From: Gemmatimonadota bacterium
GTDB lineage: Bacteria > Latescibacterota > UBA2968
Assembly (NCBI GenBank): GCA_026706845.1
Contig: JAPOXY010000135.1
Location: 5,266-69,265 of the forward strand
DNA: 64,000 bases
Direction: 5' to 3'
Positions 20,544-58,735 of this stretch are shown here, piece after piece (position 1 is the first letter of the stretch; each line of letters starts with the position of its first letter). A model generated the notes under the pieces. It worked only from the letters and a program-made list of their open reading frames with translations. It did no database searches and had not been told where the DNA came from. A program made the translations under genes and the position numbers.

Positions 20544-20550
20544 AATGATC
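20497..20550. repeat. 54-nt segment spanning the start codon of sulfatase 19236..20543. It is 53/54 identical to 27220..27273, the 5' end of sulfatase 25881..27266.
   Basis: ccctgatcgtctgtaacaatgatgagaaaatttggttttgtg[g/c]ccataatgatc is present at both loci. The proteins diverge immediately after the encoded 'TKPNFLIIVTDDQGYGD'. Confidence 0.7.
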
Positions 20551-21391
20551 ATTCCTTGAGCGCGGCAATATCCTCAGCGATCCACTCTTCCCATCTTTTT
20601 TCGTCGGGTTGCATAAATCCACTGTTGGCTCGCCGAAATACATTTGCATCTTCGCCCAGGAGGCGCAGTAGTCGACGATTGCCAGTCTCTCGTGCTCGCG
20701 CTTTGACTGCTTGAGAAATTGGTCCTGAATAATTGGCTCTGTGTTTAAGCCAGGAGTGATTCATCGTTAAAAAGAAGAGATACCGATAGTCCTTTGAATA
20801 ATTGGCTGTTCCCGAGTGCACTATCGCATTGTGGAATACGGCTATATCTCCAGATTTGGGATAAAGGATGACTTCGTCAGGATGGGGTTGCTTTCTTTCT
20901 TCGGCCGTTAAAGACATGGCTTTCATGTGTGAGCCTGGAATAATACGCAGGGGACCATTTTCATCTGTGAGATCCTGTAAATAGCTCAGGGCATTGAAGA
21001 GTAAGGGCCTTTGGTAAACGCCTTCTTGAGGAAACTCGGCGAACATGTCCCGGTGAAAACCCAGTACCGGGTTTGTGTTTGGGTCCTGTGGTGCCGTGCG
21101 CCGGTATGTGATGGATTCGAGTTGGACATGCGGGCCCACGATCATTTCAGCAAAGTCCAGGAGGCGCTTATTTGACAAGGCAGAGAGAATGAGATCGGGT
21201 TTGTGTTCTAACACATCGACAAAGACCTGGGGTCGGCTGCCATCGGGATTGGGGAGGCGATCACCGATTTCTTCAAATGAATCTCGCATGGCTTTGACCC
21301 AGACATCGTCCAGCATCTTTGGGAAAAGTGTAAATCCAACTGTTTTGAATTCTTCCAGGTGTTCTTCGAGAGATTTGGGATCTTTTTGCAT
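20549..21391 (-). CDS. PhyH-family Fe(II)/2OG dioxygenase (paralog 3), tightly coupled to the downstream sulfatase.
   Basis: 'FKTVGFTLFPKML', 'GFHRDMFAE' (H-x-D), 'AIVHSGTAN'. Confidence 0.8.
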   Translation of the reverse strand: MQKDPKSLEEHLEEFKTVGFTLFPKMLDDVWVKAMRDSFEEIGDRLPNPDGSRPQVFVDVLEHKPDLILSALSNKRLLDFAEMIVGPHVQLESITYRRTAPQDPNTNPVLGFHRDMFAEFPQEGVYQRPLLFNALSYLQDLTDENGPLRIIPGSHMKAMSLTAEERKQPHPDEVILYPKSGDIAVFHNAIVHSGTANYSKDYRYLFFLTMNHSWLKHRANYSGPISQAVKARARETGNRRLLRLLGEDANVFRRANSGFMQPDEKRWEEWIAEDIAALKE

Positions 21392-27266: not shown

Positions 27267-27273
27267 AATGATC
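27220..27273. repeat. Second copy of the 54-nt near-identical sulfatase 5' segment (see 20497..20550).
   Basis: Same string with a single mismatch. Confidence 0.7.
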
Positions 27274-36348: not shown

Positions 36349-36432
36349 AAAAACCTCCCTACTTAATTGCACAACAATCAGAATGCAATCACGATACGAA
36401 AAAGTTGTCCATACCTCATGATAATCAAACAA

Positions 36433-36449
36433 ATATTGATAATCAATAT
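36433..36449. promoter_or_regulatory. 17-bp palindrome ATATTGAT-a-ATCAATAT in the divergent sulfatase/PhyH intergenic region. Shares CAATAT/ATATTG cores with the 31621 repeat.
   Basis: Seen directly in the sequence. Flanked by the direct repeat TGATAATCAA (36417..36426, 36438..36447). Confidence 0.3.
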
Positions 36450-36554
36450 AGCCCACAAAAACAAAAAATGAAGAGTATTTGCCGTAGTTCAGAAATTAAC
36501 TTATTATGGGACATGGCAGAAAAGGCTTGTAAACCATCGAATGAGGAATACTCT

Positions 36555-37322
36555 ATGGCTCTAAACGAAGATCAGCTCACCTTTTACCGACAAAACGGCT
36601 ACTTGCTGGCCTCCGGCCTGATTTCTGATCAGATCGCGGCTCAAGCCGAAGCGGCGATGTGGAAGCTGATGGACATGGACGCGGGGGATGCGTCCACCTG
36701 GTCGACGGTGCCGGAGACCGCCGATACGTATAACAAAGGCAGCGGTGCGGTGATCTTTAACGGGGTGCAGGATCCCGATTTGATGGCCTGCGCCACAGAC
36801 GACTACCTCAACGCTGTAGCGCAGCTGCTGGGCGAACCGATTGATTCGTTGCACTCACCCGAAGCGATCTTTGCACTAAATTTGTTGGGGCGTCCGGGGC
36901 AATGGACCATGCCACGGCACCCGCACATCGACGGCCTCAACCCGAAGCATGTGCCCAAGACCTTTCCCGGGCCCTATCGCATCACCAGCCTCCTCTATCT
37001 AAGCGATATCGAACCGCAGGGCGGCGGGACCTGTGTTTGGCCTGGTTCGCCCAGCAAGATACGCGCCCTGGCTGAATCCGATCCGGTCAAGTACGAGCAC
37101 CTGAAAGATCTGAACAAGGATATCCCCTCGTTAGATCTGGAACCCGGTATCGAACTGACACCGAAGCGCGGTGATATCCTTTTTTTTTCACACTTGTTCG
37201 GCCACAATGGGTCGGTCAATACTGCGGCTAAACCACGTTTTATGATGCGCTTTTTTTGTTCGTGCGAAAAATGCTACACGACCTGGCCCAAGGCGGATCA
37301 TTGGGGTTTTTGGACGCCATAG
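36555..37322 (+). CDS. PhyH-like Fe(II)/2OG dioxygenase (paralog 5).
   Basis: 'LTFYRQNGYLLASGLIS', 'PRHPHIDGL' (H-x-D), 'HLFGHNGSVN'. GAGGAA Shine-Dalgarno before the ATG at 36555. The track ORF starts earlier, at 36405. Confidence 0.7.
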   Translation: MALNEDQLTFYRQNGYLLASGLISDQIAAQAEAAMWKLMDMDAGDASTWSTVPETADTYNKGSGAVIFNGVQDPDLMACATDDYLNAVAQLLGEPIDSLHSPEAIFALNLLGRPGQWTMPRHPHIDGLNPKHVPKTFPGPYRITSLLYLSDIEPQGGGTCVWPGSPSKIRALAESDPVKYEHLKDLNKDIPSLDLEPGIELTPKRGDILFFSHLFGHNGSVNTAAKPRFMMRFFCSCEKCYTTWPKADHWGFWTP

Positions 37323-43418: not shown

Positions 43419-46088
43419 TTACTTCCTGGTGGGGGTTCCTTCAGGATCTACTGTAGCGCCTGTTACAAATAATAAGGCATCTTTGGAAAGCTTCTTGCCG
43501 CCCACGTACATACCCCATCGAAAGGTACTGCGACCACTGGGTCTTTCCCAGTCGTGGCGTCCTATAAATTCTCCATTGATGTAGCATTCAGATGTATGGC
43601 CGTTGTCGCGAATGCGGACATCAAAAGACTTGCCTTCCATGTTCTTTAATACTGTCTTAGAAGTCGCTCTGCGCGGCTGGAATACGACGTCACCATCAGC
43701 GGTCATAACCAACATTATAGACCAGTCTTCACCGCTGTTTTTCACCTGAAAGATGCCACACCCCTGCGCTTTCACAATCGTGTAGGTGCCAATCCATTCA
43801 TGCCAGGTACCGCGGTTCCACCTCTTTTTGCTAAATGCCTCAATCCGGGCCGCATTGGCACGTGCATTGCGCACATTGTGCTCGCCATCAAAAAGGCGAA
43901 ATACCTGTGTGTTTCCGTCCTCTTGATACCATCGCGACCATTTGTGAAACTCACGTCGAGGAATCAAACTGTTGCCCGGTGTGTGAATATTGATTTCACT
44001 TTCTATAGGGCGAAAGGCATGAGGACCTTTTTCTACCACCTTGTTATTGACGTCAATTATCGAACCTGTTATTCCCGCAGAGGAGTTCGTACCGATCGGA
44101 ATCTGTTTCTCTTCGAGAATGGACGACCAGGAAGGATCACTGCCCTGCCTGGTGTAAAGGACCTGATCGGGGTCGTCTGTTGTAAAATCCAGGATCTTCT
44201 TTCGCGTTCCCTTGGTGATGGTGACAACCCCGCTGTTCCACTCAGCATTGAGAAAGGGGCTTTCAAAGACTTTCTTTGGCGCATAGTCGATTGGCTTGCC
44301 ATTGATTGAGGGTACGGCTTTGGCGCTGGTATCAAAGGTCAACTGATCGCCATAGATGGTTTTGTAGCGCAGCACCGTCCCATCTATATGAACTTCACAG
44401 GCTTTTACCTTTTTTTTGAAAGCGTCGAAACTCGTGACATCGCTCCTGGCCATGACTTCAATGATCACTGGTGCGTATTCATCATTGGGGATCATGGTCG
44501 CGTTTTCGGGAACAAAGCGATCCGTTTCAAACTCGCCATCCATCCACTTGAAACCGCCTGTGGACACGCGGATCGCCGCATAAGCGCCTTTGGCCTCCAC
44601 ATAGACCACGCCATCCTCTTCTACTGGCGCGCTCAACCCGCTCTTCGACATCCAGATGATCATCTCGGCACCGTCCTTATGGTGCTTGAGCTTCTGGGTA
44701 ATCAAGCTGCCTTTGCTCTGCACGGACCACTGTGCATTCAGGGCCACCCGGTTGTCTTTGGGGCGAACGATGGGAACAATACGCGCATCGTGTTCGCCGG
44801 CAAAGATCACGCCTTGCCAGCGGTTTTGCACACTGATCGCAGCCCAATCCTCCAGGGGCCTCGCTTCCGTCATTGGCGTTCCCATGATGAAGGCGGGATC
44901 ACAGTAGCTGTAGCGCAGAATACCCCCTCCATCGGTTCGCATCCTGGTCGGCACTTGTGTATCAGCAGTCTTCAAAGGGCGACCCGTTTTTCCCAGACCC
45001 TGGGGACGCTGCCGCACCTCGTAGCGTCCTCGTCCTGCCACGTCGATTGCGATATCGGCCACCACGGCTGGTGGTCGGTAGTCGCTGAGAGCCGCGTTCA
45101 CGTCATGACCATAAACAGCAGGCTGCTTGCCGATGCCAAAGTAGAACCAGGCCAGCGGCGCATTGCCATGATCCCGATTTTGCTTAAGCCCTTTCCAGAA
45201 ATAGATCCGCGACCGCCCACCACCTTGAACGCCGTCAATCTGTTCCTGCGCCCAATAGGCAAAATAAAGATCGAGCAACAGCCCGGCTGACCGTCTCACC
45301 TGCGGGTCACCAAAGTCGTAGAAATTGTAGAACCCCTTGATCAATGTGCTGTTATAATCGTCGCACATCATCTCGATGCACAGGCTTTTGCGCGCACGTT
45401 CACGGCAGTAAACCACAAAATACGCATTCCAGGCCCGATAATGTTCCGCCGCCGTAGCGCCGTCATCATACTTGAGATTCTTGTATTCGGGCCGATCTTT
45501 CGCGATTTTGGCAAATTGCCAGCAGACCGTAAAACTCATGGCATGATGATTCTCTGACAGGTAGATGTGCCAGGTCTTAGATTTCTCGTATTCCGCCTTA
45601 TCAAGCCGGGAAACCTTCCTGACGTATTCCCAAATTGGCTTGAGAGCGAGGGCTTCGGTCTTTTTGGTGATGCGATTACTACCGTTGGCGCCGTACATCT
45701 CAATCAGCCGCATGACGATCTCCGCATGCCAGTGAAAACTGTCGCGATCATTGATGTCCATGGGGTTGTCGAGATAATGCTGGGCATTTTCGACAAGTGC
45801 GGCATTGGCTTCTTCCAGCATCTCGTTCAGGTAGAGGCAACGTGCAGCAAACCCCACCATGGAATAGGAATAGGCCCGCACATAATTTCCTCGCCCGGGA
45901 TCGAGTGGCTTCTGTTTTTTTGCTCGCACCAACGGCTTGCCGGATTCAGCGCGAAACATCGCATCCACTCGCTGGTCAAAGCCAGCTACGACCGCTTCGG
46001 GGGTAAAATTCTTCTTCACTGGTTCCGCTCCTTGTGTCTGCCCAGTTATAAGTATAACGATCAGCATTATGCGGTTTATAATTCGCAT
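43419..46088 (-). CDS. Secreted large protein (~889 aa), paralog of 46451..48550 and 9313..11166. Candidate polysaccharide lyase (heparinase II/III-like) with beta-sandwich C-terminal domains.
   Basis: Signal peptide 'MRIINRIMLIVILITGQTQGA' from the ATG at 46088 (weak Shine-Dalgarno). Block 'LSENHHAMS...CDDYNSTLIKGFYNFYDF...GLLLDLYFAYWAQEQIDGVQGGGRSR' aligns with the 46451 protein. Confidence 0.6.
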   Translation of the reverse strand: MRIINRIMLIVILITGQTQGAEPVKKNFTPEAVVAGFDQRVDAMFRAESGKPLVRAKKQKPLDPGRGNYVRAYSYSMVGFAARCLYLNEMLEEANAALVENAQHYLDNPMDINDRDSFHWHAEIVMRLIEMYGANGSNRITKKTEALALKPIWEYVRKVSRLDKAEYEKSKTWHIYLSENHHAMSFTVCWQFAKIAKDRPEYKNLKYDDGATAAEHYRAWNAYFVVYCRERARKSLCIEMMCDDYNSTLIKGFYNFYDFGDPQVRRSAGLLLDLYFAYWAQEQIDGVQGGGRSRIYFWKGLKQNRDHGNAPLAWFYFGIGKQPAVYGHDVNAALSDYRPPAVVADIAIDVAGRGRYEVRQRPQGLGKTGRPLKTADTQVPTRMRTDGGGILRYSYCDPAFIMGTPMTEARPLEDWAAISVQNRWQGVIFAGEHDARIVPIVRPKDNRVALNAQWSVQSKGSLITQKLKHHKDGAEMIIWMSKSGLSAPVEEDGVVYVEAKGAYAAIRVSTGGFKWMDGEFETDRFVPENATMIPNDEYAPVIIEVMARSDVTSFDAFKKKVKACEVHIDGTVLRYKTIYGDQLTFDTSAKAVPSINGKPIDYAPKKVFESPFLNAEWNSGVVTITKGTRKKILDFTTDDPDQVLYTRQGSDPSWSSILEEKQIPIGTNSSAGITGSIIDVNNKVVEKGPHAFRPIESEINIHTPGNSLIPRREFHKWSRWYQEDGNTQVFRLFDGEHNVRNARANAARIEAFSKKRWNRGTWHEWIGTYTIVKAQGCGIFQVKNSGEDWSIMLVMTADGDVVFQPRRATSKTVLKNMEGKSFDVRIRDNGHTSECYINGEFIGRHDWERPSGRSTFRWGMYVGGKKLSKDALLFVTGATVDPEGTPTRK

Positions 46089-46101
46089 TATAAACACTCT
46101 G

Positions 46102-46416
46102 TTAATCCTGGTGAAAAACTTCCTGTAGCGGTATGCAGACCGGCGAGTTGTCGGGGTTGGTGTCCATGATATCGGCCATGTAGGCCCACCATTTCTTGAC
46201 GATTGCGGTCTCCGGCAACTCATCTGCAGTATTGTCGTCGGCCAGCTTCTGCACGGCAAAGAGTGTCAGTGTCTCTTCATCGAGAAAAATTGAATAGTCC
46301 GAGACGCCAGCTTTGCCCAATTCTTCAGCCAGTTCGGGCCAAATTTCATCGTGGCGCTTTTTGTACTCGGCTTCGTAGCCGGGCTTTAGCTGCATCTTGA
46401 AAGCATTGCGTTGCAT
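46102..46416 (-). CDS. rhaM: L-rhamnose mutarotase.
   Basis: 104 aa 'MQRNAFKMQLKPGYEAEYKKRHDEIWPEL...KKWWAYMADIMDTNPDNSPVCIPLQEVF', near-collinear with E. coli RhaM/YiiL ('KAFVMQVNP..EEYQRRHNPIWPEL...[26 protein letters not shown]'). AGGAG Shine-Dalgarno. The longer track ORF (to 46680) is an out-of-frame overlap with the upstream gene. Confidence 0.85.
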   Translation of the reverse strand: MQRNAFKMQLKPGYEAEYKKRHDEIWPELAEELGKAGVSDYSIFLDEETLTLFAVQKLADDNTADELPETAIVKKWWAYMADIMDTNPDNSPVCIPLQEVFHQD

Positions 46417-46450: not shown

Positions 46451-48550
46451 TTAGTATTCGTCCCTTGAATTGTTGTTAAAGTCGAGGTTGAGTTTGTAAT
46501 CGCCTTTGCAAATTTCAATCTGGCCGCTATCATAATTGGATTGGATATAAGGGCTGTCGAAAACTTTTGGGTGCTCATAATCGACATACTTTCCACCAAC
46601 TGTAGGCACATCGCTTGTATTGGCCGCATTAAATACCATTTCTGCCATTTCAGGCGCGGCACTCTTGTAAACGACAACAATGCCTGTTTCTCTTGTTACC
46701 ACGGTTCTATAGAGTGTGAGTTCGCCCTGCAAAATCATACGCTTAAAACTTTCCAATGTTGGGTGATCTGCCTTGCGACCTGCTTCTATCAGAACGGGAC
46801 TGTATCTGTTGGTCAGTTGCACAATCGTCTGATCGTTATTGAATCTATAGCTGTCGTTTCTAAGAACCACATTGCCCCGGTACCTGTCGGTCCCTTTTGC
46901 CCAGGCTTTGGCATCGGCCTCTGCTTCCAAAAGAATAACCCGTATTGCCACATAGACATTTCTCTTCTCTGCAAATATCCATCCATCTGCTTCATCAATA
47001 CGATCCCATCCGTTGCCTAAAAATAACCCGAATTCCCGATCATACCGATTGTCATTGGCTGGATACCAGTCTGGATTGGATTGTGCCCAACGTCTTCTTT
47101 GTTGGGTGATCAGCACTTGCTTATGCTGGACGCTGTGATACACCAATTCCATATCGTAGATATTTTCACCTTCGCGTTCTCCTTCTGGCGTATCCAGTGC
47201 AATGGTTGCCAGACGGGTATTGGGATCTTTGGTCACCAGACCTTGCCAGCGCCCGGCAGTTGATAGGTGGTTGTAAAGCGCATAAGGGTGATCCATTTGA
47301 GTACCCAGCACATAATCTGGCGTTACCCAGGTGTATTTGACAAACCGCGATGGCGTATCTCCCATCACGGTGCGCTCCGTGCCCAATGGACGGGGGCTGG
47401 TAGGTTCTTCTTCTCCAATGCCCCGAGAGAGATATGCAAATGACCCGAGCCCTTTTCGATCCAGAGCCAATTCCCATACGATTCTTGGCCAGGCATAGTC
47501 GCTTAAGAGTTGTTGCGGATAGTTGAACGAGGTTTTGCCCTCACCACCCAGATAGAAAATGGCGAGATCCGACATAGAATCGTATCCACCAGCAGTCTTG
47601 TGGTGGCGCGTTTTGGGACCACCTCGTAAACCTGCAATTTGTAGCTGTGCCCAATCGGCCCACATCAGATCTAAAAACATGCCAATTTTCTTTTTTAGCC
47701 CCTCATCACCACAGAAATTGTAGAGCATAAGAATATAACTGATGGTGTACTTCATATAGGTAGGCGAACCATTTTCAAGAAAGAATCCCCGCTTTGCACG
47801 CTCAGTGAAATAGTCATTGAGATAGGGCAACCAGGCATCGTAATGATCGGCTGCGTTATAAGATTTTCCATCCGCCCAATTTGCACGCCCACCACCGTGT
47901 CGATCATTGCTGCCCTGCCCACAATAGCCCGATTCGCCGTATCCGATGCCATCTCCATAACCGAGGTCGGGATAAATGCGGTCAACATACTCGGGTTCAT
48001 TGGCAAAAATACGCGCACTTAAAAGATTACAGGCTTTTGTATTCAGGTCGTGATTCTCACTACCCGCGATCCACCAGGTGCTCTTTTTTGCGACAGAAAT
48101 ATCATTTTTGTACCTGGTTCGCGCCCATAGTAAAGCCAGCAAAGTTCGCTCTGTTTCAGGCGTGAGTCGATTTGGCATCTGTGTACTTTTAGACCCAAAC
48201 CAATTGTAGAATGTAATCAGCCTTGGATTGCGCCACAGGCTGTAGAGACTCTGCCCGGGTTGTATGCCTTTCTCCTCACATTCTGCGAGATTTGCCAGTT
48301 CGATTTGAAAATCTATCGTCAATTCTTTGTTGACTTCGTTTAGATTTTGGTTGAGCCACATCTGATCAAACATCTGACGGTCTTTGCCCGAGAAGTCTGA
48401 TTTTGCACCTGCTTCAAAGGCTTGTTGAATGCGTTGTGGACGCGTTTCCAATTCTTCTGCCATTAATTCGGTGATACGCTTGTCGATGGGTGAATCACCA
48501 AATTCCAGAAGGGATCGAAACCAACTGTTTTTAGCATCTGCTTCAGGCAT
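46451..48550 (-). CDS. Cytoplasmic paralog (699 aa) of the 43419 and 9313 proteins. Candidate polysaccharide lyase-like.
   Basis: 'GSENHDLNT...FLENGSPTYMKYTISYILMLYNF...GMFLDLMWADWAQLQIAGLRGGPKTR'. No signal peptide. Confidence 0.65.
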   Translation of the reverse strand: MPEADAKNSWFRSLLEFGDSPIDKRITELMAEELETRPQRIQQAFEAGAKSDFSGKDRQMFDQMWLNQNLNEVNKELTIDFQIELANLAECEEKGIQPGQSLYSLWRNPRLITFYNWFGSKSTQMPNRLTPETERTLLALLWARTRYKNDISVAKKSTWWIAGSENHDLNTKACNLLSARIFANEPEYVDRIYPDLGYGDGIGYGESGYCGQGSNDRHGGGRANWADGKSYNAADHYDAWLPYLNDYFTERAKRGFFLENGSPTYMKYTISYILMLYNFCGDEGLKKKIGMFLDLMWADWAQLQIAGLRGGPKTRHHKTAGGYDSMSDLAIFYLGGEGKTSFNYPQQLLSDYAWPRIVWELALDRKGLGSFAYLSRGIGEEEPTSPRPLGTERTVMGDTPSRFVKYTWVTPDYVLGTQMDHPYALYNHLSTAGRWQGLVTKDPNTRLATIALDTPEGEREGENIYDMELVYHSVQHKQVLITQQRRRWAQSNPDWYPANDNRYDREFGLFLGNGWDRIDEADGWIFAEKRNVYVAIRVILLEAEADAKAWAKGTDRYRGNVVLRNDSYRFNNDQTIVQLTNRYSPVLIEAGRKADHPTLESFKRMILQGELTLYRTVVTRETGIVVVYKSAAPEMAEMVFNAANTSDVPTVGGKYVDYEHPKVFDSPYIQSNYDSGQIEICKGDYKLNLDFNNNSRDEY

Positions 48551-48568: not shown

Positions 48569-50803
48569 TCACACTGAGCAGTCCCCGGCGTCTGTTGTAC
48601 CGGTATCAAATGTCCATCCGTCCCACATGTTGTCAACGGTCGCTGGCACATCCTCTCGAAAGTTTCGGGTATCGACCCACCACTGACGGTTTGGTGCTGG
48701 TCCATGCGACAGGTTAAAATATGGCGTCATACCATCTCGTTGATACTCACAGGGAACAACGAGACGCACGACAGGTCGATCGCGGTCAGCAGAGCGATTG
48801 ACACCTCCCCCGTGAATAAGGCGAGGATGCCAGAAAACAACGTCCCCTGCTTTGCCGGAAAACTCCACTGGCGCAATCTCTCTCAGCACATTGTCACGGG
48901 CTTTGCTATATGGCTCTGCGAGGTCGGGGTCAAGGGGACCGTAAACAGTAGTGTGATACAAGTGACTCATGTAATGTGACCCCGGCCAGATTGTAAAGCC
49001 ACCAGAGTGCGGAGGCACCGTATCTACAAAAACCATTGCAGACAATTGAGCCGCTGTATGGTCTCCATGGGGGGCCAAACGACTTTCCGAATTTGGTGGT
49101 TTTGGAAATATACAATAGACCCCTCGCACCCGGTTTGAACGTTTAACCGGCTCGCCGATGAACAATGAAACCAACTGCCGCATACGTGGGTGGTTGGCGA
49201 TCTTATCGACAAAAAAAGGCTCTGTACCAATTTTACGCGAGCGCATCTTCCAGGTGCCGCGCGCAAATTGTCCTGCCTTTTCGGCATCCGCCGCTGTCCA
49301 CTGCCCGTGTGGCGCATCGAACCACGTTTGCACATCGTCGCGTTTGACAATCTCACGCGGCACATTTTCCCACACATAATCCACGATCCGGTCAAACGTC
49401 TCCTTCTCTTGCAGAAACCCGCGTTTCACAAGAAAACCATTCTCTTTGAAAAACGCGACTTCGGCTTCACTGAGGGTTGGGTCTCCATTCACAAATTCTG
49501 GATCGGGCAAGAGGGCGGGGTCTCCGTTCGCTAATTCTGGATCGACCAATACCTGGGGATCACGGATGACGACGTCTTCGGAAATTCTGAGCGCGTGTAA
49601 ACCGCTCCCTTCAAATGGCGGCACTAAAAGATTGTAGATTTGTTGCGCTTTCTCTTTCTGATTCATGCATGCCAATTCGGCTTTCACAGGCTCAAAATCC
49701 ATATTTAAATAAAGGTAAGCAGCGAGCCTCAGACATCTAAATGCGGGCTCTCCAGAAAAGGGTTGAATCTGTGGAAGTGTCCACTCGCGATCGCCCACCC
49801 AGTAGGGATAAAGCCAATCAAAGGCGCGTCGCATGGATCGCCCATCGGTAGATTCATAATTGGCGAGATCAATACCCCACTGTCGGCCAATTTCAGCGAG
49901 TTCTAAAAGAAGCTCCAAATTCATACTCGCGTATCCAAGTGCCTTTGTGCGTGCGAGTTCCAGAGGCTGTTGACCATCTGGCTCAATCTGATCGGCAATC
50001 CTTCTTTCTCCCACCCCTTTTAATATCATTCGCGCAAGATCTGATTGCCCCACAAAAAGCGCGAATGTCACAACCTGAATATCATAAGAACTCGAATGGT
50101 TATTGCCATGACGCGCTTCGTCAACCCCATAAGGATGCTTCAACATCCATTCGAGAAACGCGTGAAACCAGGCCTGCAAATCTTCCATATCTTTTTGGGA
50201 CCAGTTCTTAGAGTCGCGCAAAAAACTGACCGCAGGGAGCATCTCGCGTGCAAATGCCGCTGTCTCAATAAGCCCGATACCTCGCCCTTCGCATATCCCG
50301 GGTATGGCCTGTCCAAACAACAGGTTTGGGTTCATCTTGGTTTCGGGATTCATAAACCATGTTCGCAACAACAATGCAGCATGCGCCGCGTAGTCTTCTC
50401 GCTGTGTAAAACCATACGCTAACCCCAGCGTTTTCACCGTTGAAATGAATTTTGCCAACAAAGGGCGGTCCGTTTTCTCGACCTCGGGATTGACCTCGCC
50501 ATCTCGTCGGATATAAGGCAAACCGTCAGGCTTATCGGGGTCTGGCCACCAGTAAGGTCCAACACTCATGTAATCGTGTTTGTCACTACTGGCAGGCAAG
50601 ATCGGTTTGTTCACAATGGTCAGCGGTTCCTGCTTCAAAGCGGCATCCGCTTTCACAAGCAGGGCTTTAAGGGCTTGCCCACACGGGTTATCTTCCCGTT
50701 TGCTCAACGAGCGCGCCCGCTTGATATAATCGGGATCTACTGTAAATATGGGTTCAGCAGGTGAAAACGCCTTGAGCAGATCAGCTTCTTTGTCTGGATA
50801 CAT
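48569..50803 (-). CDS. Two-domain fusion: N-terminal alginate-lyase/heparinase-N-like alpha/alpha-toroid domain (~430 aa) plus a C-terminal PhyH-family Fe(II)/2OG dioxygenase domain (paralog 7).
   Basis: N-terminal 'DKHDYMSVGPYWWPDPDKPDGLPYIRRDGEVNP' is alginate-lyase-like (uncertain). C-terminal 'EAEVAFFKENGFLVKRGFL', 'APHGDHTAAQ' (H-x-D), 'HPRLIHGGGVN'. Single uninterrupted 744-aa ORF. Confidence 0.7.
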   Translation of the reverse strand: MYPDKEADLLKAFSPAEPIFTVDPDYIKRARSLSKREDNPCGQALKALLVKADAALKQEPLTIVNKPILPASSDKHDYMSVGPYWWPDPDKPDGLPYIRRDGEVNPEVEKTDRPLLAKFISTVKTLGLAYGFTQREDYAAHAALLLRTWFMNPETKMNPNLLFGQAIPGICEGRGIGLIETAAFAREMLPAVSFLRDSKNWSQKDMEDLQAWFHAFLEWMLKHPYGVDEARHGNNHSSSYDIQVVTFALFVGQSDLARMILKGVGERRIADQIEPDGQQPLELARTKALGYASMNLELLLELAEIGRQWGIDLANYESTDGRSMRRAFDWLYPYWVGDREWTLPQIQPFSGEPAFRCLRLAAYLYLNMDFEPVKAELACMNQKEKAQQIYNLLVPPFEGSGLHALRISEDVVIRDPQVLVDPELANGDPALLPDPEFVNGDPTLSEAEVAFFKENGFLVKRGFLQEKETFDRIVDYVWENVPREIVKRDDVQTWFDAPHGQWTAADAEKAGQFARGTWKMRSRKIGTEPFFVDKIANHPRMRQLVSLFIGEPVKRSNRVRGVYCIFPKPPNSESRLAPHGDHTAAQLSAMVFVDTVPPHSGGFTIWPGSHYMSHLYHTTVYGPLDPDLAEPYSKARDNVLREIAPVEFSGKAGDVVFWHPRLIHGGGVNRSADRDRPVVRLVVPCEYQRDGMTPYFNLSHGPAPNRQWWVDTRNFREDVPATVDNMWDGWTFDTGTTDAGDCSV

Positions 50804-50827
50804 GTGAATGCTCCTGTTTTAAGTTGG

Positions 50828-52762
50828 TTATTGTAAATCGATTTCCAGTTGCAAATAATCGTACATAACGCCAAAGTGAGGATAGTTCTGTCGTTGTCCG
50901 CGGTGTTTTTTTAGTGGGAGGAGGTCGAGTGTCAACACATTCTCTCCTGCACGCAACAGCGACGCATCAAACGCAATAAAGTGCTCACTGAAGCGCCCGT
51001 AGATGCCACTGCGAGGAAGCGCACTGTCGTTCTCCAAACCGGTAATCTCGTCCAGAGGTTTGCCATTGAGGCCGATAGCGATACCCCCATCGCGATTCAC
51101 CGCCGCCAGGGCGATTGTGAGGGTCGCACGTCCGGACACTGGCTTATCATCGTATTGAAATCGGATCTTCCAGGCAGGCAGTCGCCAGTTGCCTTCTCCA
51201 GTCCGGTCAGCAGGCTGTATGCGGGGTTGCCATCCGCCTTTCTCTTCCCAAATTGCCATCTGTGCATAATTCCAGTCGCTTCGCTCTTTGCTCTTTCCGA
51301 CCGCGAAATCGACATCCTCGGGAAAATCCTTCTGGTAATTGAACCATAGCCCCCAGTGGCGATGGTCATCTCCGCGTCGAAATTCAGCAGCAGTTCGGTC
51401 TGGTTTTCCGACACGCCAGAGCAACTTGCCGAAAGAACGGGGTGACCACTGCAGACTGCCGAGTTTGACTTCGCCGGTTGCGTCGATCGTGACGTCATCT
51501 TTTCTAAACTCGCCAATCATGTCAGGGGCAAATGCATAAAGCGTATATCTTCCTTTTCGGACAGCCGGTATTGCAAAGGAACCATCAGCCGCCATCCTGG
51601 CGCGGTAGATGTAGTTCTCTGCGCCTTGCTGCTGCCAGTCCAGTCCTCGATATTCCTGGGGCCGCGCCAGAACGACCCATCCATTGCTGTGGTGTGTCAG
51701 ACCCGTATCTTTGAATTGTCCCGTAACCACAGCCCTGTCGATCGGGTACTCCGGATGTTGTAGCCAGCTGTAGGGCCAGTGCTTTCGGTGTTTTTCACCC
51801 TCGCGCTTTGCATCATACCACAAATGCCGGGCATCTTCACCTTTGTTCATATAAACAAATACCGGCCCGAAGATCTTCTCCCATTTACCGCTGACGTAAT
51901 CCCCTCTGCTGCCGTAGTGGTGAGAATAGAGCAGCTTCAGGATGATCGGACCCCGATCAGTCGCGTGGCTGGTATTGTGTTGTTTTGTCGGACCGCCGCA
52001 GAGGTATTCATTGCTCGGCGTGACCATCCACACGCCCTGCTTTCCATTGTGCAAACCGTGTACAAGAGCCTCCTGAGTTGGAGATGACCAGTTATACTTT
52101 GTATCCACTTCTCCCGATTGGAGCGCATGTGTGGCATCCATCACCATGCCCTTTGCGCTGGATATTGCCTTGCTATCCGGAATCACACCAGAGAGTTTGT
52201 CATTGACCCTGATATTCACCATCGAATCGTTTAGGCGCATCCCAAAACGAAGCTGTGTCAGTACGGCGTCGCCCGTATCCCCGGGTTTGCTGGCCACAAC
52301 ATAATAATAGAACCCCGAATCACCCGCTCTCAAGACATAATGGAGTTCCATCTTGAACGGGAAACCTGCGGGTTGTTTGGGGGTGAATGAAACATCGATC
52401 ATTTCCGGGTTGTTGACGTGGATGTTGAACTCGGGGTTTTGGTCGCGCAAAAATTTTGCCCTCGCACTCGACTCTTTACCCGCCATATAGTTTGTATCCG
52501 AATCATCGACATAACTGGCCAGGATGGTGAAATATCCAAACTGCCTGGGAGATAGGAGAGAGTCCCCCTGATGTTCCAACGAGATAATCCGCCCCGTAGA
52601 TTTTTGGATCGTCATCGAAACGGAATTGTTCTCGAGGATGATTCTATTGCCAGATTCAACAAGCATCGAAGCCTCTGCGAAAACCGGCGTGCTGATCATA
52701 CACTGGATGGATATAAGCAGAATGCACGCCGCGAATCTGCCAAATCCAATCTTTTTGAACAT
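50828..52762 (-). CDS. Secreted polysaccharide-lyase-like protein. The weak resemblance to PL4 rhamnogalacturonan lyase architecture is an unverified impression.
   Basis: Signal peptide 'MFKKIGFGRFAACILLISIQCMISTPVFAEA'. ~640 aa of beta-sandwich-like sequence. Family assignment tentative. Confidence 0.55.
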   Translation of the reverse strand: MFKKIGFGRFAACILLISIQCMISTPVFAEASMLVESGNRIILENNSVSMTIQKSTGRIISLEHQGDSLLSPRQFGYFTILASYVDDSDTNYMAGKESSARAKFLRDQNPEFNIHVNNPEMIDVSFTPKQPAGFPFKMELHYVLRAGDSGFYYYVVASKPGDTGDAVLTQLRFGMRLNDSMVNIRVNDKLSGVIPDSKAISSAKGMVMDATHALQSGEVDTKYNWSSPTQEALVHGLHNGKQGVWMVTPSNEYLCGGPTKQHNTSHATDRGPIILKLLYSHHYGSRGDYVSGKWEKIFGPVFVYMNKGEDARHLWYDAKREGEKHRKHWPYSWLQHPEYPIDRAVVTGQFKDTGLTHHSNGWVVLARPQEYRGLDWQQQGAENYIYRARMAADGSFAIPAVRKGRYTLYAFAPDMIGEFRKDDVTIDATGEVKLGSLQWSPRSFGKLLWRVGKPDRTAAEFRRGDDHRHWGLWFNYQKDFPEDVDFAVGKSKERSDWNYAQMAIWEEKGGWQPRIQPADRTGEGNWRLPAWKIRFQYDDKPVSGRATLTIALAAVNRDGGIAIGLNGKPLDEITGLENDSALPRSGIYGRFSEHFIAFDASLLRAGENVLTLDLLPLKKHRGQRQNYPHFGVMYDYLQLEIDLQ

Positions 52763-52916
52763 TTTGTGTTTTTCTATGAAGTGTTGCACAACGAAATATC
52801 TTGATTGAGGTTCATTTTTGTATGTACTATTATACCAGTAGTTCTACACTCACGTTGTCTTGCGCTACACCGATCCGGTAGCGCGGACTGAACTCGAAAC
52901 AATGGGAAGAATACAT

Positions 52917-55525: not shown

Positions 55526-57754
55526 TCAATCCGAATTGCGCTGCACCTGATTGATGCTACCGATAAATCCAAATGAGCCTAAGGGCACGTCGTCGTGGCA
55601 GCCATCCAGAATTTGCCTGCACCCTTCAAGCGTATCTTGCAGAGCCACGGTTTCGCCCGGCTTGCCTATCCAAGATTCTGTACCGTGATAGGGTTGTGTG
55701 AGAAAGAGGGCCAAACGCCGGGCGCGTAATGCAAGATCTCTTATATTTTCATCAATCAGGCTTTCAACCAGACGCCCTTCTTTGAATGCCGCCTGTAGAT
55801 TCTGGTTATCGTATTGCACAAGCGTTTGTCTCACCTGCGCCACCGTTTCTTTGTGAGCCATCTCAAGCCGGTTGTCACTCAGAAGGATTGAGCGCGACCG
55901 CTGAGGATCAATTGCTGGATACAGAGCCTCCTTGGCTCGGTGACCGCTCATGGCAATAACAGCATCTAAAAAACCGAAAGTATTACCATTGAGATCTGAG
56001 GGTTGACATCCCCAATAAAAGGTGGTAATGGCTGCTTCTGGTGTGACGAGCGCGCGCGATCTGAGAAATGGGATGATGCCTTTTTTTTGCGCCAATCCAG
56101 CTTCTACGATCAGCAGGACATTATGGCCCTGGTTGTGAAAGCCATCGGCTATGGTCAGGCCTGTTTCAACAACATGGTGGTGCCTGGTTTCAGCGTCTTT
56201 TTCACGAGCCAGTACAAAGACGGTGTTCTCTTCTAACAGCTTGCCATCGCAAACGAACTCCCGCCATTCTTTAAACTTCACCGCTGGATCTTCTCCGGCA
56301 AATCCCACAAAAACGATTCGGCCATTATGTTGCGCAATAAAGTTGCGGGCAATCTGCTCACCCAGCATCAGTACGCCCACACCAATGCACTTCTCCACAC
56401 CAACGTGGCCACCCCGCTTAAATGGCGCAAAAAGATCTACGGCCTTAATGCCGGTTTCAAGAATCGGCAAAACAGCGTCTTTAACCCCACCGCATACAAG
56501 CTGTTGCTCCGAATCGCTTATTGGATCTTCGCTGTCTATGGGTGCGCAGTCTGCATCTATCATGCGTCCGAGAACCGAAGCACCGGCAATGACTGAGCGA
56601 GATTGAGATACAGGTTTTGTTTTTTCCAATGGTTTGCGTACGGGAACACTTGGCTTTTTTGCCCCGCGCTTCACCAAAAGATTCACCAAATTCTGGCGGC
56701 CCTTTAGCGCTGCCCAGTCAGTGGCGGTATAGCCTTTTGCATCTACGGCCTCGATTTCGGCATTTGCATTGAGAAGCAGTTCTACCAGGACCTCGTCGCC
56801 GCGCATCACTGCGCGATGCAATGGCGTGTGTTTACACCAGCCTCTCGCTTCGACGTTGGCCTTTCTGTCCAGCAGCATTTGAGCCATCTGGTGCTGTCCC
56901 TGCATAACTGCATTCAATAGTGGGGTGTTTCCGCCCTTGTCTGCGGTGTTTATGTCTACCCCATGTTTGAGCAATAGATCCACCATGGGCTCATCACCGA
57001 CCGATGTCGCCCATGTCATGGGTGTCGTTCCCGGGTTGACATTCTGGTCGGCGCCTGTCCACCAATCGGCTTCAGCCTGGGCGAGTGAAGCATCGGCGTC
57101 TAACAATGTTGAAGCTGTTTCTATATCTCTCTGTTTCAAAGCGATAAAGAATCGCACTCTCGTAGCAAACGATTCGTCTGGTTGGTTTTGTTGCAGTGTT
57201 TCTTTGACCATGTTCTCCATCCTTTTTTTCAGCCCTTTTCGGGCATCGTAAAGTCGTTTCCCAACGGTTCCGACCGACACACCCAAGAACTTCGCGATTT
57301 CCTTTTGTGAATACCCCTCCAGGTAGAAGAGGGCAATGGCTTCGCGTTGTGCGCTCGGCAAAGCATTAATGGCGTCTCGCACTTCATGGCGGGTTTGCTG
57401 TTGGGTGAAAAGCACCTCTGGATTGGGCAGATCTGAAGGCAGGGTTTGAATCTCTGCTGGATCCATCATTAGAGGCCGCGACTTGCGCAGTTGGCGGTCG
57501 CTGTGTTTAACCACAAAGCGGCGAAACCAGGCCGGAAACGCAGCGGGTTCTCGCAAAGTATCCAGGCAGAGAAAAGCCTCAATAAAAGCTTCCTGTGCGG
57601 CATCCTGAGCCAGGTGAAAATCGCCGGTCTGAGCATAAGCGCTGGCATATGCCATGCTCTGGTAACGAGAAACAATATGCCCGAAAGCTTCGCTTTTGCC
57701 CAACTGAGCTGCTCGAACCAGGGTGTCTAACTTTTTTGTCTTTGGTGTTTCCAT
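55526..57754 (-). CDS. Fusion protein of an ECF sigma-70 factor (regions 2 and 4), ankyrin repeats, and a degenerate F1/T3SS-ATPase beta-subunit-like domain (pseudo-ATPase).
   Basis: Sigma region 2 'GHIVSRYQSMAYASAYAQTGDFHLAQDAAQEAFIEAF' and region 4 'SAQREAIALFYLEGYSQKEIAKFLGVSVGTVGKRLYDARKGL'. Ankyrin repeats 'GNTPLLNAVMQG..', 'HTPLHRAVMRGDEVLVELLL', 'GYTATDWAALKG'. ATPase-beta-like blocks 'LETGIKAVDLFAPFKRGGHVGV', 'GHNVLLIVEAG', 'ALYPAIDP', 'RRLALFLTQPY', 'QILDGCHDDVPLGSFGFIGSI'. The Walker A position reads 'EKCIGVGVL' (no GKT). Start codon uncertain: the track ORF starts at the TTG at 57799; the ATG at 57754 lies 15 nt after an AGGAGG. Confidence 0.75.
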   Translation of the reverse strand: METPKTKKLDTLVRAAQLGKSEAFGHIVSRYQSMAYASAYAQTGDFHLAQDAAQEAFIEAFLCLDTLREPAAFPAWFRRFVVKHSDRQLRKSRPLMMDPAEIQTLPSDLPNPEVLFTQQQTRHEVRDAINALPSAQREAIALFYLEGYSQKEIAKFLGVSVGTVGKRLYDARKGLKKRMENMVKETLQQNQPDESFATRVRFFIALKQRDIETASTLLDADASLAQAEADWWTGADQNVNPGTTPMTWATSVGDEPMVDLLLKHGVDINTADKGGNTPLLNAVMQGQHQMAQMLLDRKANVEARGWCKHTPLHRAVMRGDEVLVELLLNANAEIEAVDAKGYTATDWAALKGRQNLVNLLVKRGAKKPSVPVRKPLEKTKPVSQSRSVIAGASVLGRMIDADCAPIDSEDPISDSEQQLVCGGVKDAVLPILETGIKAVDLFAPFKRGGHVGVEKCIGVGVLMLGEQIARNFIAQHNGRIVFVGFAGEDPAVKFKEWREFVCDGKLLEENTVFVLAREKDAETRHHHVVETGLTIADGFHNQGHNVLLIVEAGLAQKKGIIPFLRSRALVTPEAAITTFYWGCQPSDLNGNTFGFLDAVIAMSGHRAKEALYPAIDPQRSRSILLSDNRLEMAHKETVAQVRQTLVQYDNQNLQAAFKEGRLVESLIDENIRDLALRARRLALFLTQPYHGTESWIGKPGETVALQDTLEGCRQILDGCHDDVPLGSFGFIGSINQVQRNSD

Positions 57755-57928
57755 AAATACTGTAGAAGGCCTCCTATATTTAAGTCCCATTTGGGTCAAA
57801 AAATATTACATGGTCAAAGAAATTATTTTTGAACACGGTTTGTTTTCAAACAGAGAGAATTTGCCCACGAGATTGATTAAATGCATGTGTGAAGAAGATG
57901 AGGCAGGTTTGGTGAGAAAATCAAGTGA

Positions 57929-58735
57929 TTACTGGCTGAGGCACACCCGTTGTCGAGTGGCGATTTCCTTTTTGTCGGTGTAGTGCGCCGTTTCGAGCAA
58001 TTCGAGTGTTTCGGGCGCCAGCCGCTCTTTGACCGCCTCAGGAATGGGACGGCCGGGCTGGCGGTGGTGTGGGCGGTAGCGCAACGTTAACACCCGGCGT
58101 TGGCGATCGACGGGTTTCCAGGGCAGGACCCCGTGGGTAAGGCATTCGGGTATAATGACCACATCCCCAGCTGAGGGCGTGATATTGATGACTCCCAACG
58201 GTACTTCTCCTTCGATGCGACCCTGGGAAAATAGCTGCGGTGGCCGGTCAAACTGGCTTTTGTGCGAACCCGGGAGCACGAGGAGCCCGCCATCACCTGG
58301 ATGTACATCGTCCAGGTAGGGAAACACCACAAAGTCGTCGCAATAGATACGGCCCTGATGTATCTCGTAACGGGCGCTCTCAAAGCCGTAGTCGTCGCGG
58401 GCGCAGTGCAGCGGACTCGCCTCGGTGTGTCCGTCGGGATCGTCGACCATGAGGGTACCGCTGGCGAGCATAGGTTTGCCGTTTGTCAGCTCCAGCACGA
58501 TGGGCCAGACTGCGGGCAGAAAGACCAGATTTTCCAGCGCCCGGTCAAAGGCGAAGCCGTGAGCAAAGCCCTTGAGATTTTCTGATTGTCCGAAATGCGG
58601 CGGCAGGTCTTCCGGTGCGCTGTCGATGTAGCGCCTGGCAGCCTCCGAAGCCGCATCCAGTTCCTCCGGAGTCAGGACGTTCTTCAGGTGCAGAAAACCG
58701 CATAGATCAAAAAGATAGCGTTGTTCTTCGGTCAT
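57929..58735 (-). CDS. PhyH-family Fe(II)/2OG dioxygenase (paralog 9).
   Basis: 'LFDLCGFLHLKNVLTPEEL', 'PLHCARDDY', 'ECLTHGVLPW'. Confidence 0.75.
   Translation of the reverse strand: MTEEQRYLFDLCGFLHLKNVLTPEELDAASEAARRYIDSAPEDLPPHFGQSENLKGFAHGFAFDRALENLVFLPAVWPIVLELTNGKPMLASGTLMVDDPDGHTEASPLHCARDDYGFESARYEIHQGRIYCDDFVVFPYLDDVHPGDGGLLVLPGSHKSQFDRPPQLFSQGRIEGEVPLGVINITPSAGDVVIIPECLTHGVLPWKPVDRQRRVLTLRYRPHHRQPGRPIPEAVKERLAPETLELLETAHYTDKKEIATRQRVCLSQ

What the first reader, a model, noticed from the sequence alone, without database searches (positions are those of the whole stretch)
48569..50803. Alginate-lyase/heparinase-N-like domain covalently fused to a PhyH dioxygenase domain
A 744-aa ORF has a ~430-aa N-terminal alpha/alpha-toroid-type region ('DKHDYMSVGPYWWPDPDKPDGLPYIRRDGEVNP...') resembling alginate-lyase/heparinase N-domains. 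A C-terminal PhyH domain carries an intact triad ('APHGDHT...RLIHGGGVN'). A glycan-binding or glycan-cleaving fold physically linked to an Fe/2OG oxygenase implies the dioxygenase family in this locus acts on poly- or oligosaccharides. I am not aware of a described polysaccharide-lyase-dioxygenase fusion. It could catalyse coupled cleavage and oxidation (for example of 4,5-unsaturated uronates or sulfated residues). It links the PhyH expansion mechanistically to the glycan-degrading genes.
Basis: partly seen in the sequence, partly recalled or inferred. Interest (0 to 1): 0.75.

Follow-up and report, generated by a model that had tools for sequence, protein, structure and literature searches.

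The report
Uronate lyase fused to iron oxygenase
A marine Latescibacterota bacterium encodes one cytoplasmic protein that rigidly joins an intact PL38-type uronate lyase to an intact Fe(II)/2-oxoglutarate oxygenase, an undescribed pairing that gives a testable handle on why sulfatase-rich marine bacteria carry so many PhyH oxygenases.

Summary
ORF 48569-50803 (minus strand, 744 aa) carries a full-length Alginate_lyase domain (PF05426, E 4e-86) and a PhyH domain (PF05721, E 1.4e-17).

- **Lyase half.** It is PL38-type, not heparinase-like. Eight of nine BoPL38 active-site residues are conserved.
- **Oxygenase half.** It has a PhyH-type Fe/2OG oxygenase fold with an invariant H579-x-D581...H664 triad and invariant R680.
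- **The fusion is real.** It is uninterrupted in 22 species-level Latescibacterota genomes and 37 protein clusters. Both halves evolve at similar rates, the junction motif PPFEG is invariant, and the full-length model is confident (pTM 0.88).
- **It is rare.** Among 1.84 billion representative proteins, one 50 %-identity cluster has this architecture. Other PL38 fusions pair it with glycan-active enzymes (GH88, heparinase, sulfatase, esterases).
- **It is cytoplasmic.** There is no signal peptide, so it should act on imported oligosaccharides.

Most likely it is a bifunctional enzyme that cleaves a uronate linkage and oxidises the same acidic oligosaccharide. The oxygenase's substrate is not shown. 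Its stand-alone relatives sometimes sit next to acyl-CoA thioesterases, and divergent fusion genes lie outside glycan loci. I rate it a new variant of known kinds, of moderate to high interest.

The parts
48569..50803 (-). Complete 744-aa PL38-PhyH fusion ORF (stop codon at 48569-48571)
   Evidence: full-length AF2 model with pLDDT 92.9 and pTM 0.88
50811..50815 (-). AGGAG ribosome-binding site, 7 nt upstream of the ATG
49619..50710 (-). PL38-type (alpha/alpha)-barrel uronate lyase domain, aa 32-395
   Evidence: PF05426 E 4e-86. phmmer E 8e-89 to 3NFV and about 1e-63 to BoPL38 8BDQ. Foldseek target-normalised TM 0.92 and 0.84-0.87
49931..50554 (-). Span holding the lyase active-site residues: Y84 (50552-50554), D101 (50501-50503), Q165 (50309-50311), E229 (50117-50119), N235 and H236 (50096-50101), R285 (49949-49951), G290 (49934-49936, in place of BoPL38 H297) and Y291 (49931-49933)
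   Evidence: Residue roles come from the BoPL38 preprint. Mapping uses the alignment. The residues are invariant or at least 90 % conserved in 24 fusion homologues. Codons were checked
49469..49618 (-). Inter-domain junction, aa 396-445. The PPFEG motif is invariant. The segment corresponds to the native N-terminal extension of stand-alone PhyH relatives, so no separate flexible linker was added
   Evidence: pLDDT 80-96 across this stretch
49472..49549 (-). 39-nt tandem duplication (82 % identity between copies) encoding DPELANGDPALLP / DPEFVNGDPTLS; present only in the window's clade and in P0003 and P0009
   Evidence: (family D4)
48599..49468 (-). PhyH-type Fe(II)/2-oxoglutarate oxygenase domain, aa 446-735
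48764..49069 (-). Span holding the metal triad H579 (49067-49069), D581 (49061-49063) and H664 (48812-48814), plus the candidate 2OG-binding R680 (48764-48766)
   Evidence: Invariant in 24 fusions and in 58 sequences of the PhyH subfamily. Codons were checked
50828..52789 (-). Upstream neighbour (24-nt gap): PL4-like rhamnogalacturonan-lyase-type protein with a signal peptide. The adjacency is not conserved in close relatives
46451..48550 (-). Downstream neighbour (18-nt gap): 699-aa protein with no Pfam, NCBIfam or PDB match. In several relatives it directly follows the PL4-like gene instead

Best explanation
This is a genuine, selectively maintained, cytoplasmic bifunctional enzyme of marine Candidatus Latescibacterota.

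The N-terminal PL38 domain keeps the full beta-elimination machinery. Y291 and H236 would act as base/acid. R285 and D101 would close the substrate tunnel. N235, Q165, E229 and Y84 are also in place. It should cleave a 4-linked uronate (glucuronate-, mannuronate- or guluronate-type) in an imported acidic oligosaccharide.

The C-terminal PhyH-type domain keeps the Fe(II) triad and a conserved arginine. It is packed against the lyase through a conserved junction with no flexible linker. It most likely uses O2 and 2-oxoglutarate to hydroxylate a C-H on the same oligosaccharide or on the lyase product. The reaction could remove a blocking decoration (an O-methyl ether or a sulfate ester, by hydroxylation at the substituted carbon) or oxidise a ring carbon.

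Shown: the architecture, the conservation of catalytic residues in both halves, the single-body structure prediction, the absence of a signal peptide and the restricted distribution. Inferred: lyase activity, oxygenase activity, a carbohydrate substrate for the oxygenase, and any coupling between the two reactions.
For: - Domain calls and catalytic residues.
- Both halves diverge in parallel across homologues (N-half 68-97 %, C-half 66-98 % identity), and the junction keeps an invariant PPFEG motif.
- The full-length AF2 model has pLDDT 92.9 and pTM 0.88, with the junction at pLDDT 80-96.
- The fusion is uninterrupted in 22 species-level genomes, 37 clusters and 6 metagenome contigs, always in frame.
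- Some MAGs carry two divergent fusion copies (L014 with L022; L021 with L023).
- There is no signal peptide and no room for one, and the N-terminus is conserved from residue 2. A cytoplasmic location fits a 2OG- and Fe(II)-dependent enzyme.
- In the window it lies in an island with 13 sulfatases, 3 lyase-like genes, an enolase-superfamily gene and an aldo-keto reductase.
- Among 32 other multi-domain PL38 proteins, the partners are GH88 (6), heparinase II/III (4), sulfatase (2), carbohydrate esterases and other lyases. These are enzymes that act on the same glycan.
- The closest solved relatives of the PhyH half by profile are SnoK and SnoN. The top structural matches include HygX, EvdO1/O2, AviO1 and KanJ. 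By my own knowledge, not checked here, all of these oxidise sugar carbons.
- Stand-alone relatives of the PhyH half recur next to sulfatases and enolase-superfamily genes.
Against: - No activity data exist for either half.
- In carriers at 68-71 % identity the gene sits among housekeeping or unrelated genes (parAB, a SulP permease, UDG) and not among CAZymes.
- Even among relatives at 93-98 % identity its immediate neighbours change.
- Stand-alone orthologues at 47-55 % identity overlap or adjoin a TesB-like acyl-CoA thioesterase gene in 3-5 loci, which hints at a CoA-thioester substrate in that clade.
- The model coordinates and PAE could not be inspected, so I do not know whether the two active sites face each other.
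- BoPL38 H297, needed there to form the Michaelis complex, is Gly here, as it also is in the uncharacterised 3NFV.
Confidence: 0.55

Rival explanations
1. The fusion is real, but the two halves work on unrelated substrates. The PhyH half hydroxylates a small anionic non-sugar metabolite such as an acyl-CoA. The fusion only secures co-expression or stability.
For: Stand-alone orthologues of the PhyH half overlap a TesB-like acyl-CoA thioesterase gene in L038, L039 and L070, and lie near one in L071 and L080. Divergent fusion genes lie outside glycan loci. The subfamily has many invariant Arg and Lys residues, which would suit any anionic substrate.
Against: Every other PL38 fusion partner surveyed is glycan-active. 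The junction is conserved and the two domains are predicted as one rigid body. The thioesterase link appears only in the 47-55 % identity tier, whereas closer stand-alone relatives sit with sulfatases and enolase-superfamily genes.
Confidence: 0.2
2. The PL38 domain has become a non-catalytic binding module that only delivers a uronate-containing ligand to the oxygenase.
For: BoPL38 H297, required there for substrate binding, is replaced by Gly. A cytoplasmic location is unusual for PL38.
Against: Y291, H236, R285, D101, N235, Q165, E229 and Y84 are all invariant or nearly so across homologues at 68-97 % identity. The same Gly occurs in 3NFV. The N-half is as constrained as the C-half.
Confidence: 0.1
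3. The enzyme modifies or trims the cell's own acidic exopolysaccharide or a precursor, in a biosynthetic or remodelling role, and does not serve catabolism.
For: It is cytoplasmic. In some genomes it is a solitary gene near core genes such as parAB. From my own knowledge, alginate-lyase-fold proteins such as AlgL take part in polymer biosynthesis.
Against: No glycosyltransferase or export genes lie next to it in any locus examined. In the window and its close relatives it sits in a sulfatase and lyase island.
Confidence: 0.08
4. The fusion is an artefact: two adjacent genes merged by a sequencing or assembly error.
For: One MAG (L037) calls two genes.
Against: L037 aligns to the window without gaps and differs by an in-frame stop inside a scrambled patch that destroys the invariant GFxVKRG motif. 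Twenty-two other genomes, several of them closed long-read chromosomes, have the uninterrupted frame. No unfused adjacent PL38 and PhyH pair was found anywhere.
Confidence: 0.02

Closest known systems
BoPL38 (Bacteroides ovatus CP926, PDB 8BDQ and 9FHT-9FI6) and BACOVA_01668 (PDB 3NFV/3NNB); CAZy family PL38
   Same: Same fold: target-normalised TM 0.84-0.92. Strong sequence similarity: E 1e-63 and 8e-89. The same catalytic Tyr and His, the Arg-Asp tunnel clasp, and the Asn, Gln, Glu and Tyr network.
   Different: The known enzymes are single-domain and secreted; BoPL38 was cloned 'without signal peptide' and acts outside the cytoplasm. This protein has no signal peptide and carries a 340-aa oxygenase at its C-terminus. 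BoPL38 H297 is Gly here. The substrate is unknown; the family covers alginate and beta-1,4-glucuronan.
Multi-domain PL38 proteins: tandem PL38-PL38, and PL38 fused to GH88, heparinase II/III, sulfatase or carbohydrate esterases
   Same: A PL38 module covalently joined to a second catalytic module.
   Different: None of 150 top-scoring representatives drawn from 1.84 billion proteins pairs PL38 with a PhyH-type domain, apart from this one cluster. The Pfam scan of 32 of the long multi-domain ones (top 25 of 36 families shown) found no Fe/2OG oxygenase partner either. The other partners are hydrolases, lyases or esterases, not O2-dependent oxidases.
PhyH-type Fe(II)/2OG oxygenases that act on sugar moieties: SnoK and SnoN (nogalamycin), KanJ (kanamycin B), HygX, EvdO1/O2 and AviO1 (orthoester formation)
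   Different: Identity is only 16-21 %, on a plateau shared with human PhyH, EctD, proline hydroxylases and meroterpenoid oxygenases. Those enzymes are biosynthetic tailoring enzymes, not catabolic ones. About 140 of the 343 residues here fall outside the shared core.
The PhyH expansion in sponge-associated Poribacteria (Kamke et al. 2014, PMC3909097)
   Same: Large numbers of highly diverse PhyH genes of unknown function in marine, sulfatase-rich, glycan-degrading bacteria. The window carries 8 PhyH domains and 13 sulfatases in 64 kb.
   Different: It is a different phylum. The Poribacteria study proposed a phosphonate (PhnY-like) function for a few members and none for the rest, and it reported no CAZyme fusion.
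AtsK-type oxidative sulfate-ester cleavage (TauD family), and P450-dependent O-demethylation of 6-O-methyl-galactose in porphyran catabolism (both recalled from memory, not checked here)
   Same: They are a chemical precedent: hydroxylation at the substituted carbon removes a sulfate ester or a methyl ether that blocks sugar catabolism.
   Different: They belong to different protein families. No TauD or P450 match occurs in this ORF. This is an analogy of mechanism only.

Membership tests
CAZy PL38 / Pfam PF05426 Alginate_lyase | Sequence similarity to PL38 members that clearly exceeds similarity to other alginate-lyase-fold families | tested here: met
   phmmer gives E 8e-89 to 3NFV and about 1e-63 to BoPL38, against 5e-4 to a poly-mannuronate lyase, 7WXJ. 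PF05426 matches its full profile length at E 4e-86. I could not run dbCAN subfamily assignment.
CAZy PL38 / Pfam PF05426 Alginate_lyase | (alpha/alpha)7-barrel fold with a tunnel-shaped active site | tested here: met
   The AF2 model has pLDDT 92.9. Foldseek gives target-normalised TM 0.92 to 3NNB and 0.84-0.87 to 8BDQ. The tunnel clasp R292-D108 is conserved as R285-D101.
CAZy PL38 / Pfam PF05426 Alginate_lyase | Catalytic Tyr298 and His243 with Asn242, Gln173, Glu236, Tyr91 and His297 | tested here: met
   Eight of nine residues are conserved (Y291, H236, N235, Q165, E229, Y84, R285, D101) and are invariant or nearly so in 24 homologues. H297 is Gly290, as in 3NFV.
CAZy PL38 / Pfam PF05426 Alginate_lyase | Beta-eliminative cleavage of alginate or beta-1,4-glucuronan | not testable with these tools
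   This needs an enzyme assay.
CAZy PL38 / Pfam PF05426 Alginate_lyase | Secreted or periplasmic location (typical of the family, not defining) | tested here: not met
   There is no N-terminal hydrophobic segment, and the ORF cannot extend upstream. The N-terminus is conserved from residue 2. SignalP was not available.
PhyH-type Fe(II)/2-oxoglutarate oxygenases (PF05721) | Pfam match above the gathering threshold, and a double-stranded beta-helix fold | tested here: met
PhyH-type Fe(II)/2-oxoglutarate oxygenases (PF05721) | 2-His-1-carboxylate facial triad (HxD...H) | tested here: met
   H579, D581 and H664 are invariant in 24 fusions and in 58 subfamily members.
PhyH-type Fe(II)/2-oxoglutarate oxygenases (PF05721) | A basic residue binding the C5 carboxylate of 2OG | tested here: inconclusive
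   R680 lies 16 residues after H664 and is invariant. Its structural equivalence to the 2OG-binding Arg of human PhyH is inferred, not checked on coordinates.
PhyH-type Fe(II)/2-oxoglutarate oxygenases (PF05721) | 2OG-dependent substrate oxidation | not testable with these tools
   This needs an enzyme assay.
True phytanoyl-CoA 2-hydroxylase orthologues | Specific, closest similarity to PHYH | tested here: not met
TauD/AtsK sulfate-ester dioxygenases | TauD-family domain (PF02668) | tested here: not met
   There is no TauD hit in the ORF at E<=0.1. Only the idea of the mechanism is borrowed.

The most novel reading that the evidence does not exclude
The PhyH half is a glycan-active Fe(II)/2OG oxygenase, which would be a first for this family in polysaccharide catabolism. 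Held against the PL38 tunnel, it oxidatively strips a sulfate ester or O-methyl group from the uronate-containing oligosaccharide that the lyase half cleaves, or it hydroxylates C1 or C4 to break a glycosidic bond. The fusion would then be a Rosetta stone showing that the large, unexplained PhyH expansions of sulfatase-rich marine bacteria (Latescibacterota, Poribacteria) are an oxidative arm of sulfated-glycan degradation working inside the cytoplasm.
Probability: 0.3. Interest if true: 0.85.

Novelty: new variant of a known kind. Interest (0 to 1): 0.6.

Why it matters
Marine glycan degradation is understood in terms of hydrolases, lyases, sulfatases, esterases and a few P450 or LPMO oxidases. 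Fe(II)/2OG oxygenases are not part of that picture. Yet PhyH is the most abundant Pfam family in Poribacteria genomes and its function there is largely unknown, and this 64-kb window alone carries 8 PhyH domains beside 13 sulfatases.

A covalent, conserved link between one PhyH subfamily and a catalytically intact uronate lyase narrows the search for a substrate to uronate-containing oligosaccharides. It also supplies a single recombinant protein in which both activities, and any coupling between them, can be assayed. If the oxygenase is glycan-active, this adds a new enzyme class to carbohydrate catabolism. It would also make that part of the degradation of sulfated glycans dependent on oxygen. 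If it is not glycan-active, the fusion is an unusual case of a CAZyme module joined to unrelated metabolism.

Tried and rejected
- **Heparinase-like reading.** Rejected: no Hepar_II_III hit for this protein, and PL38 is the clear best match.
- **Frameshift or split gene.** Rejected.
- **'PhyH expansion by duplication'.** Rejected: the window's paralogues share only 20-26 % identity.
- **Conserved operon with the PL4-like and 699-aa neighbours.** Rejected: gene order is shuffled even at 93-98 % identity, and in several genomes the PL4-like gene is directly followed by the 699-aa gene, with the fusion elsewhere.
- **Search for an unfused adjacent PL38 and PhyH pair (split homologues).** None found. 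Whenever both are present they are in frame.
- **Second independent PL38+PhyH fusion elsewhere.** None among the top 150 representatives. The subfamily HMM might miss a very divergent PhyH. The Pfam scan of 32 long PL38 proteins listed no 2OG oxygenase among the 25 most frequent of the 36 families found.
- **P0040-P0059 as another kind of fusion.** They are tandem PL38-PL38 proteins.
- **Repeats that could explain the island shuffling.** None found.
- **PDB search with the 699-aa neighbour.** No hit.
- **Literature searches for a lyase-dioxygenase fusion, or for PhyH in PULs.** All came back empty.
- **Technical dead ends.** The AFDB fold library was not available. Model coordinates and PAE are not exposed, so the interdomain interface could not be inspected. 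The first tree script timed out.
- **Oddity.** The search with the C-half alone did not list the fusion proteins themselves, so that list is not exhaustive.
Full report
**1. Observation**

The ORF at 48569..50803 on the minus strand is 744 aa. It is the longest frame possible from the preceding stop, and an AGGAG site lies 7 nt before the ATG. Pfam finds two domains:
- PF05426 Alginate_lyase at aa 63-341, covering the whole profile, E 4e-86.
- PF05721 PhyH at aa 452-675, E 1.4e-17.

No heparinase II/III family scores.

**2. The lyase half**

Against all PDB sequences, the best matches are BACOVA_01668 (3NFV, E 8e-89, aa 32-390) and the Bacteroides ovatus PL38 alginate lyase BoPL38 (8BDQ and 9FH*/9FI*, E about 1e-63). 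A poly-mannuronate lyase (7WXJ) reaches only 5e-4. The full-length AF2 model superposes on 3NNB/3NFV with target-normalised TM 0.92, and on BoPL38 with 0.84-0.87.

The BoPL38 study assigns these roles:
- Y298 and H243 act as the syn and anti base/acid.
- R292 distorts the +1 sugar and, with D108, clasps the tunnel.
- N242, Q173, E236, Y91 and H297 are needed for binding or protonation.

Through the alignment these map to Y291, H236, R285, D101, N235, Q165, E229, Y84 and G290. Eight of the nine are kept, and they are invariant or at least 90 % conserved in 24 fusion homologues at 68-97 % identity. The exception, H297 to Gly, is shared with 3NFV.

PL38 is reported to act on alginate and on beta-1,4-glucuronan, endo or exo. 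So the N-half is a PL38-type module that looks catalytically competent, with unknown specificity.

**3. The oxygenase half**

H579-x-D581...H664 and R680 are invariant in the fusions and in 58 stand-alone relatives. The fold and the metal site are therefore intact. It is not a phytanoyl-CoA hydroxylase orthologue, and no substrate can be read from the fold. From my own knowledge, several of the nearest structures oxidise carbons of sugar moieties, which shows the chemistry is feasible.

**4. Is the fusion real and selected?**

- The full-length search returns 37 clusters (67-97 % identity, 681-744 aa), all annotated PF05426+PF05721.
- A scan of one genome per GTDB species finds the complete frame in 22 genomes. 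All are labelled Latescibacterota or Latescibacteria except one labelled Gemmatimonadetes. Several are closed chromosomes.
- Some MAGs hold two divergent copies: L014 with L022, and L021 with L023.
- Six more metagenome contigs carry it, always in frame.
- One MAG splits it through an in-frame stop inside a scrambled patch, with no indel.
- The two halves diverge in parallel (N-half 68-97 %, C-half 66-98 %), and the junction carries an invariant PPFEG motif.
- The junction segment is also present at the N-terminus of stand-alone PhyH relatives, so no linker was added.
- The window's clade has a 39-nt tandem duplication in the junction.
- The full-length model has pLDDT 92.9 and pTM 0.88, with the junction at 80-96. 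This points to one rigid body. I could not inspect coordinates or PAE.

**5. How unusual is it?**

An exhaustive HMMER pass over 1.84 billion 50 %-identity representatives yields a single cluster (P0008) that spans both halves. All other top hits are PL38 alone, tandem PL38 or PhyH alone. Local HMMs of each half confirm this: of the 150 listed proteins, 127 have one PL38 module, 20 have two, one is PhyH alone, and only P0008 and a 176-aa junction fragment have both.

In 32 long single-PL38 proteins the partner domains are all glycan-active or related:
- GH88 (6 proteins)
- heparinase II/III (4)
- sulfatase (2)
- ThuA
- carbohydrate esterases
- pectate- and chondroitinase-B-type lyases
- CBM11

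No 2OG oxygenase is among them. PL38 modules are thus normally fused to enzymes that act on the same glycan or on its lyase product, which raises the prior that the PhyH half does so too. Literature searches found no description of such a fusion.

**6. Location and context**

The protein has no signal peptide, and its N-terminus is conserved from residue 2. Characterised PL38 enzymes are secreted.

The window is a glycan-type island containing:
- 13 sulfatases
- 8 PhyH domains
- PL4-like, PL2-like and beta-helix proteins
- a BNR_4 protein
- an enolase-superfamily gene
- an aldo-keto reductase
- an esterase

Nearly all the sulfatases and all the PhyH proteins lack signal peptides. Only the PL4-like protein, the PL2-like protein and one unknown protein have them. 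This suggests outer depolymerisation followed by cytoplasmic desulfation and oxidation.

The five PhyH paralogues that were compared share only 20-26 % identity with each other and with the fusion's PhyH half, so the fusion speaks for one subfamily only.

Gene order in the island is shuffled among relatives at 93-98 % identity. In carriers at 68-83 % identity the fusion sits in unrelated surroundings. Two of these loci share a conserved block, parA-parB-SulP permease-fusion-(stand-alone PhyH)-UDG. The covalent link, not the neighbourhood, is the conserved feature.

**7. Stand-alone relatives of the PhyH half**

Many proteins of about 330 aa share 47-72 % identity over the whole half. Genomes with the fusion also carry such paralogues, and in L047 and L050 one directly follows the fusion gene.

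In a neighbour-joining tree, the main fusion clade with the window is monophyletic (100/100 bootstraps). A second, divergent fusion group interleaves with stand-alone copies, and its own monophyly has only 16/100 support. The N-halves are at least 68 % identical to each other but at most about 50 % identical to any stand-alone PL38. I therefore infer one fusion event followed by partial duplications, without having tested this.

The neighbours of stand-alone copies are sulfatases and enolase-superfamily genes. In the 47-55 % identity tier, a TesB-like acyl-CoA thioesterase lies directly upstream in three loci and nearby in two more. This last association is the main evidence against a carbohydrate substrate.

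**8. Explanation and verdict**

Most likely (0.55) this is a cytoplasmic bifunctional enzyme. It would cleave a 4-linked uronate by beta-elimination and oxidise the same imported acidic oligosaccharide or its product with Fe(II), 2OG and O2. The oxidation may remove a methyl ether or a sulfate ester, or hydroxylate a ring carbon.

The rivals are:
- unrelated substrates for the two halves (0.2)
- a non-catalytic PL38 module (0.1)
- a biosynthetic role (0.08)
- an artefact (0.02)

The architecture is a new variant built from two known families. It matters because it offers a direct experimental route into the unexplained PhyH expansions of sulfatase-rich marine bacteria. I score its interest at 0.6.

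Noticed in passing
window 11758-62792 (island as a whole): Nearly all 13 sulfatases and all PhyH proteins lack signal peptides. Only the PL4-like (50828-52789), PL2-like (31871-33415) and one unknown protein (28958-30427) have one. This is a largely cytoplasmic sulfatase and oxygenase island, and no FGE or anSME maturase and no importer were recognised in the window.
   Followed up: partly
window 55526-57799 (-): A 757-aa ORF combines ECF sigma-70 regions 2 and 4, ankyrin repeats and an ATP-synthase-alpha/beta-like NTPase domain. It is missing between the flanking genes in the closest relatives L002 and L003, so it looks like a strain-specific insertion.
   Followed up: no
window 40000-63500 compared with L002-L019: Gene order in the island is extensively shuffled among long-read Latescibacterota MAGs whose proteins are 93-98 % identical. 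No long repeats that could mediate this were found in the window.
   Followed up: partly
L030 9986-10477 (Opitutales MAG OZ252288.1): A 163-aa ORF is about 85 % identical to the last 165 residues of the fusion's PhyH half and is cut just before the HxD motif. It is either a remnant of horizontal transfer or contamination in the MAG.
   Followed up: partly
window 46451-48550 (-) and 43419-46259 (-): Two large proteins (699 and 946 aa) are distant paralogues of each other (about 25 % identity). They have no Pfam, NCBIfam or PDB sequence match and are conserved in the island, so they are candidate new glycan-active families.
   Followed up: partly
L033 7566-12169; L047 1886-6982: In the divergent fusion group the gene lies in a conserved block near parAB, directly after a SulP-family sulfate permease (with STAS domain). 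In L047 it is followed by a stand-alone copy of its own PhyH half.
   Followed up: partly
L038 7177-8984; L039 7180-8999; L070 4132-5918: Stand-alone orthologues of the PhyH half (about 50-55 % identity) overlap or directly follow a TesB-like acyl-CoA thioesterase II gene in unrelated genomes. This is a recurrent gene pair of unknown function.
   Followed up: partly
window 20487-20550 and 27210-27273: A 64-nt direct repeat, 94 % identical, lies at the 5' ends of two sulfatase genes (19236-20552 and 25881-27266). It indicates recent duplication or gene conversion between their N-termini (family D2).
   Followed up: no
window 36405-37322 (+) and 57929-58735 (-): Two further PhyH-family ORFs (E 4.9e-6 and 2.2e-9) bring the window's total to eight PhyH domains.
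   Followed up: no
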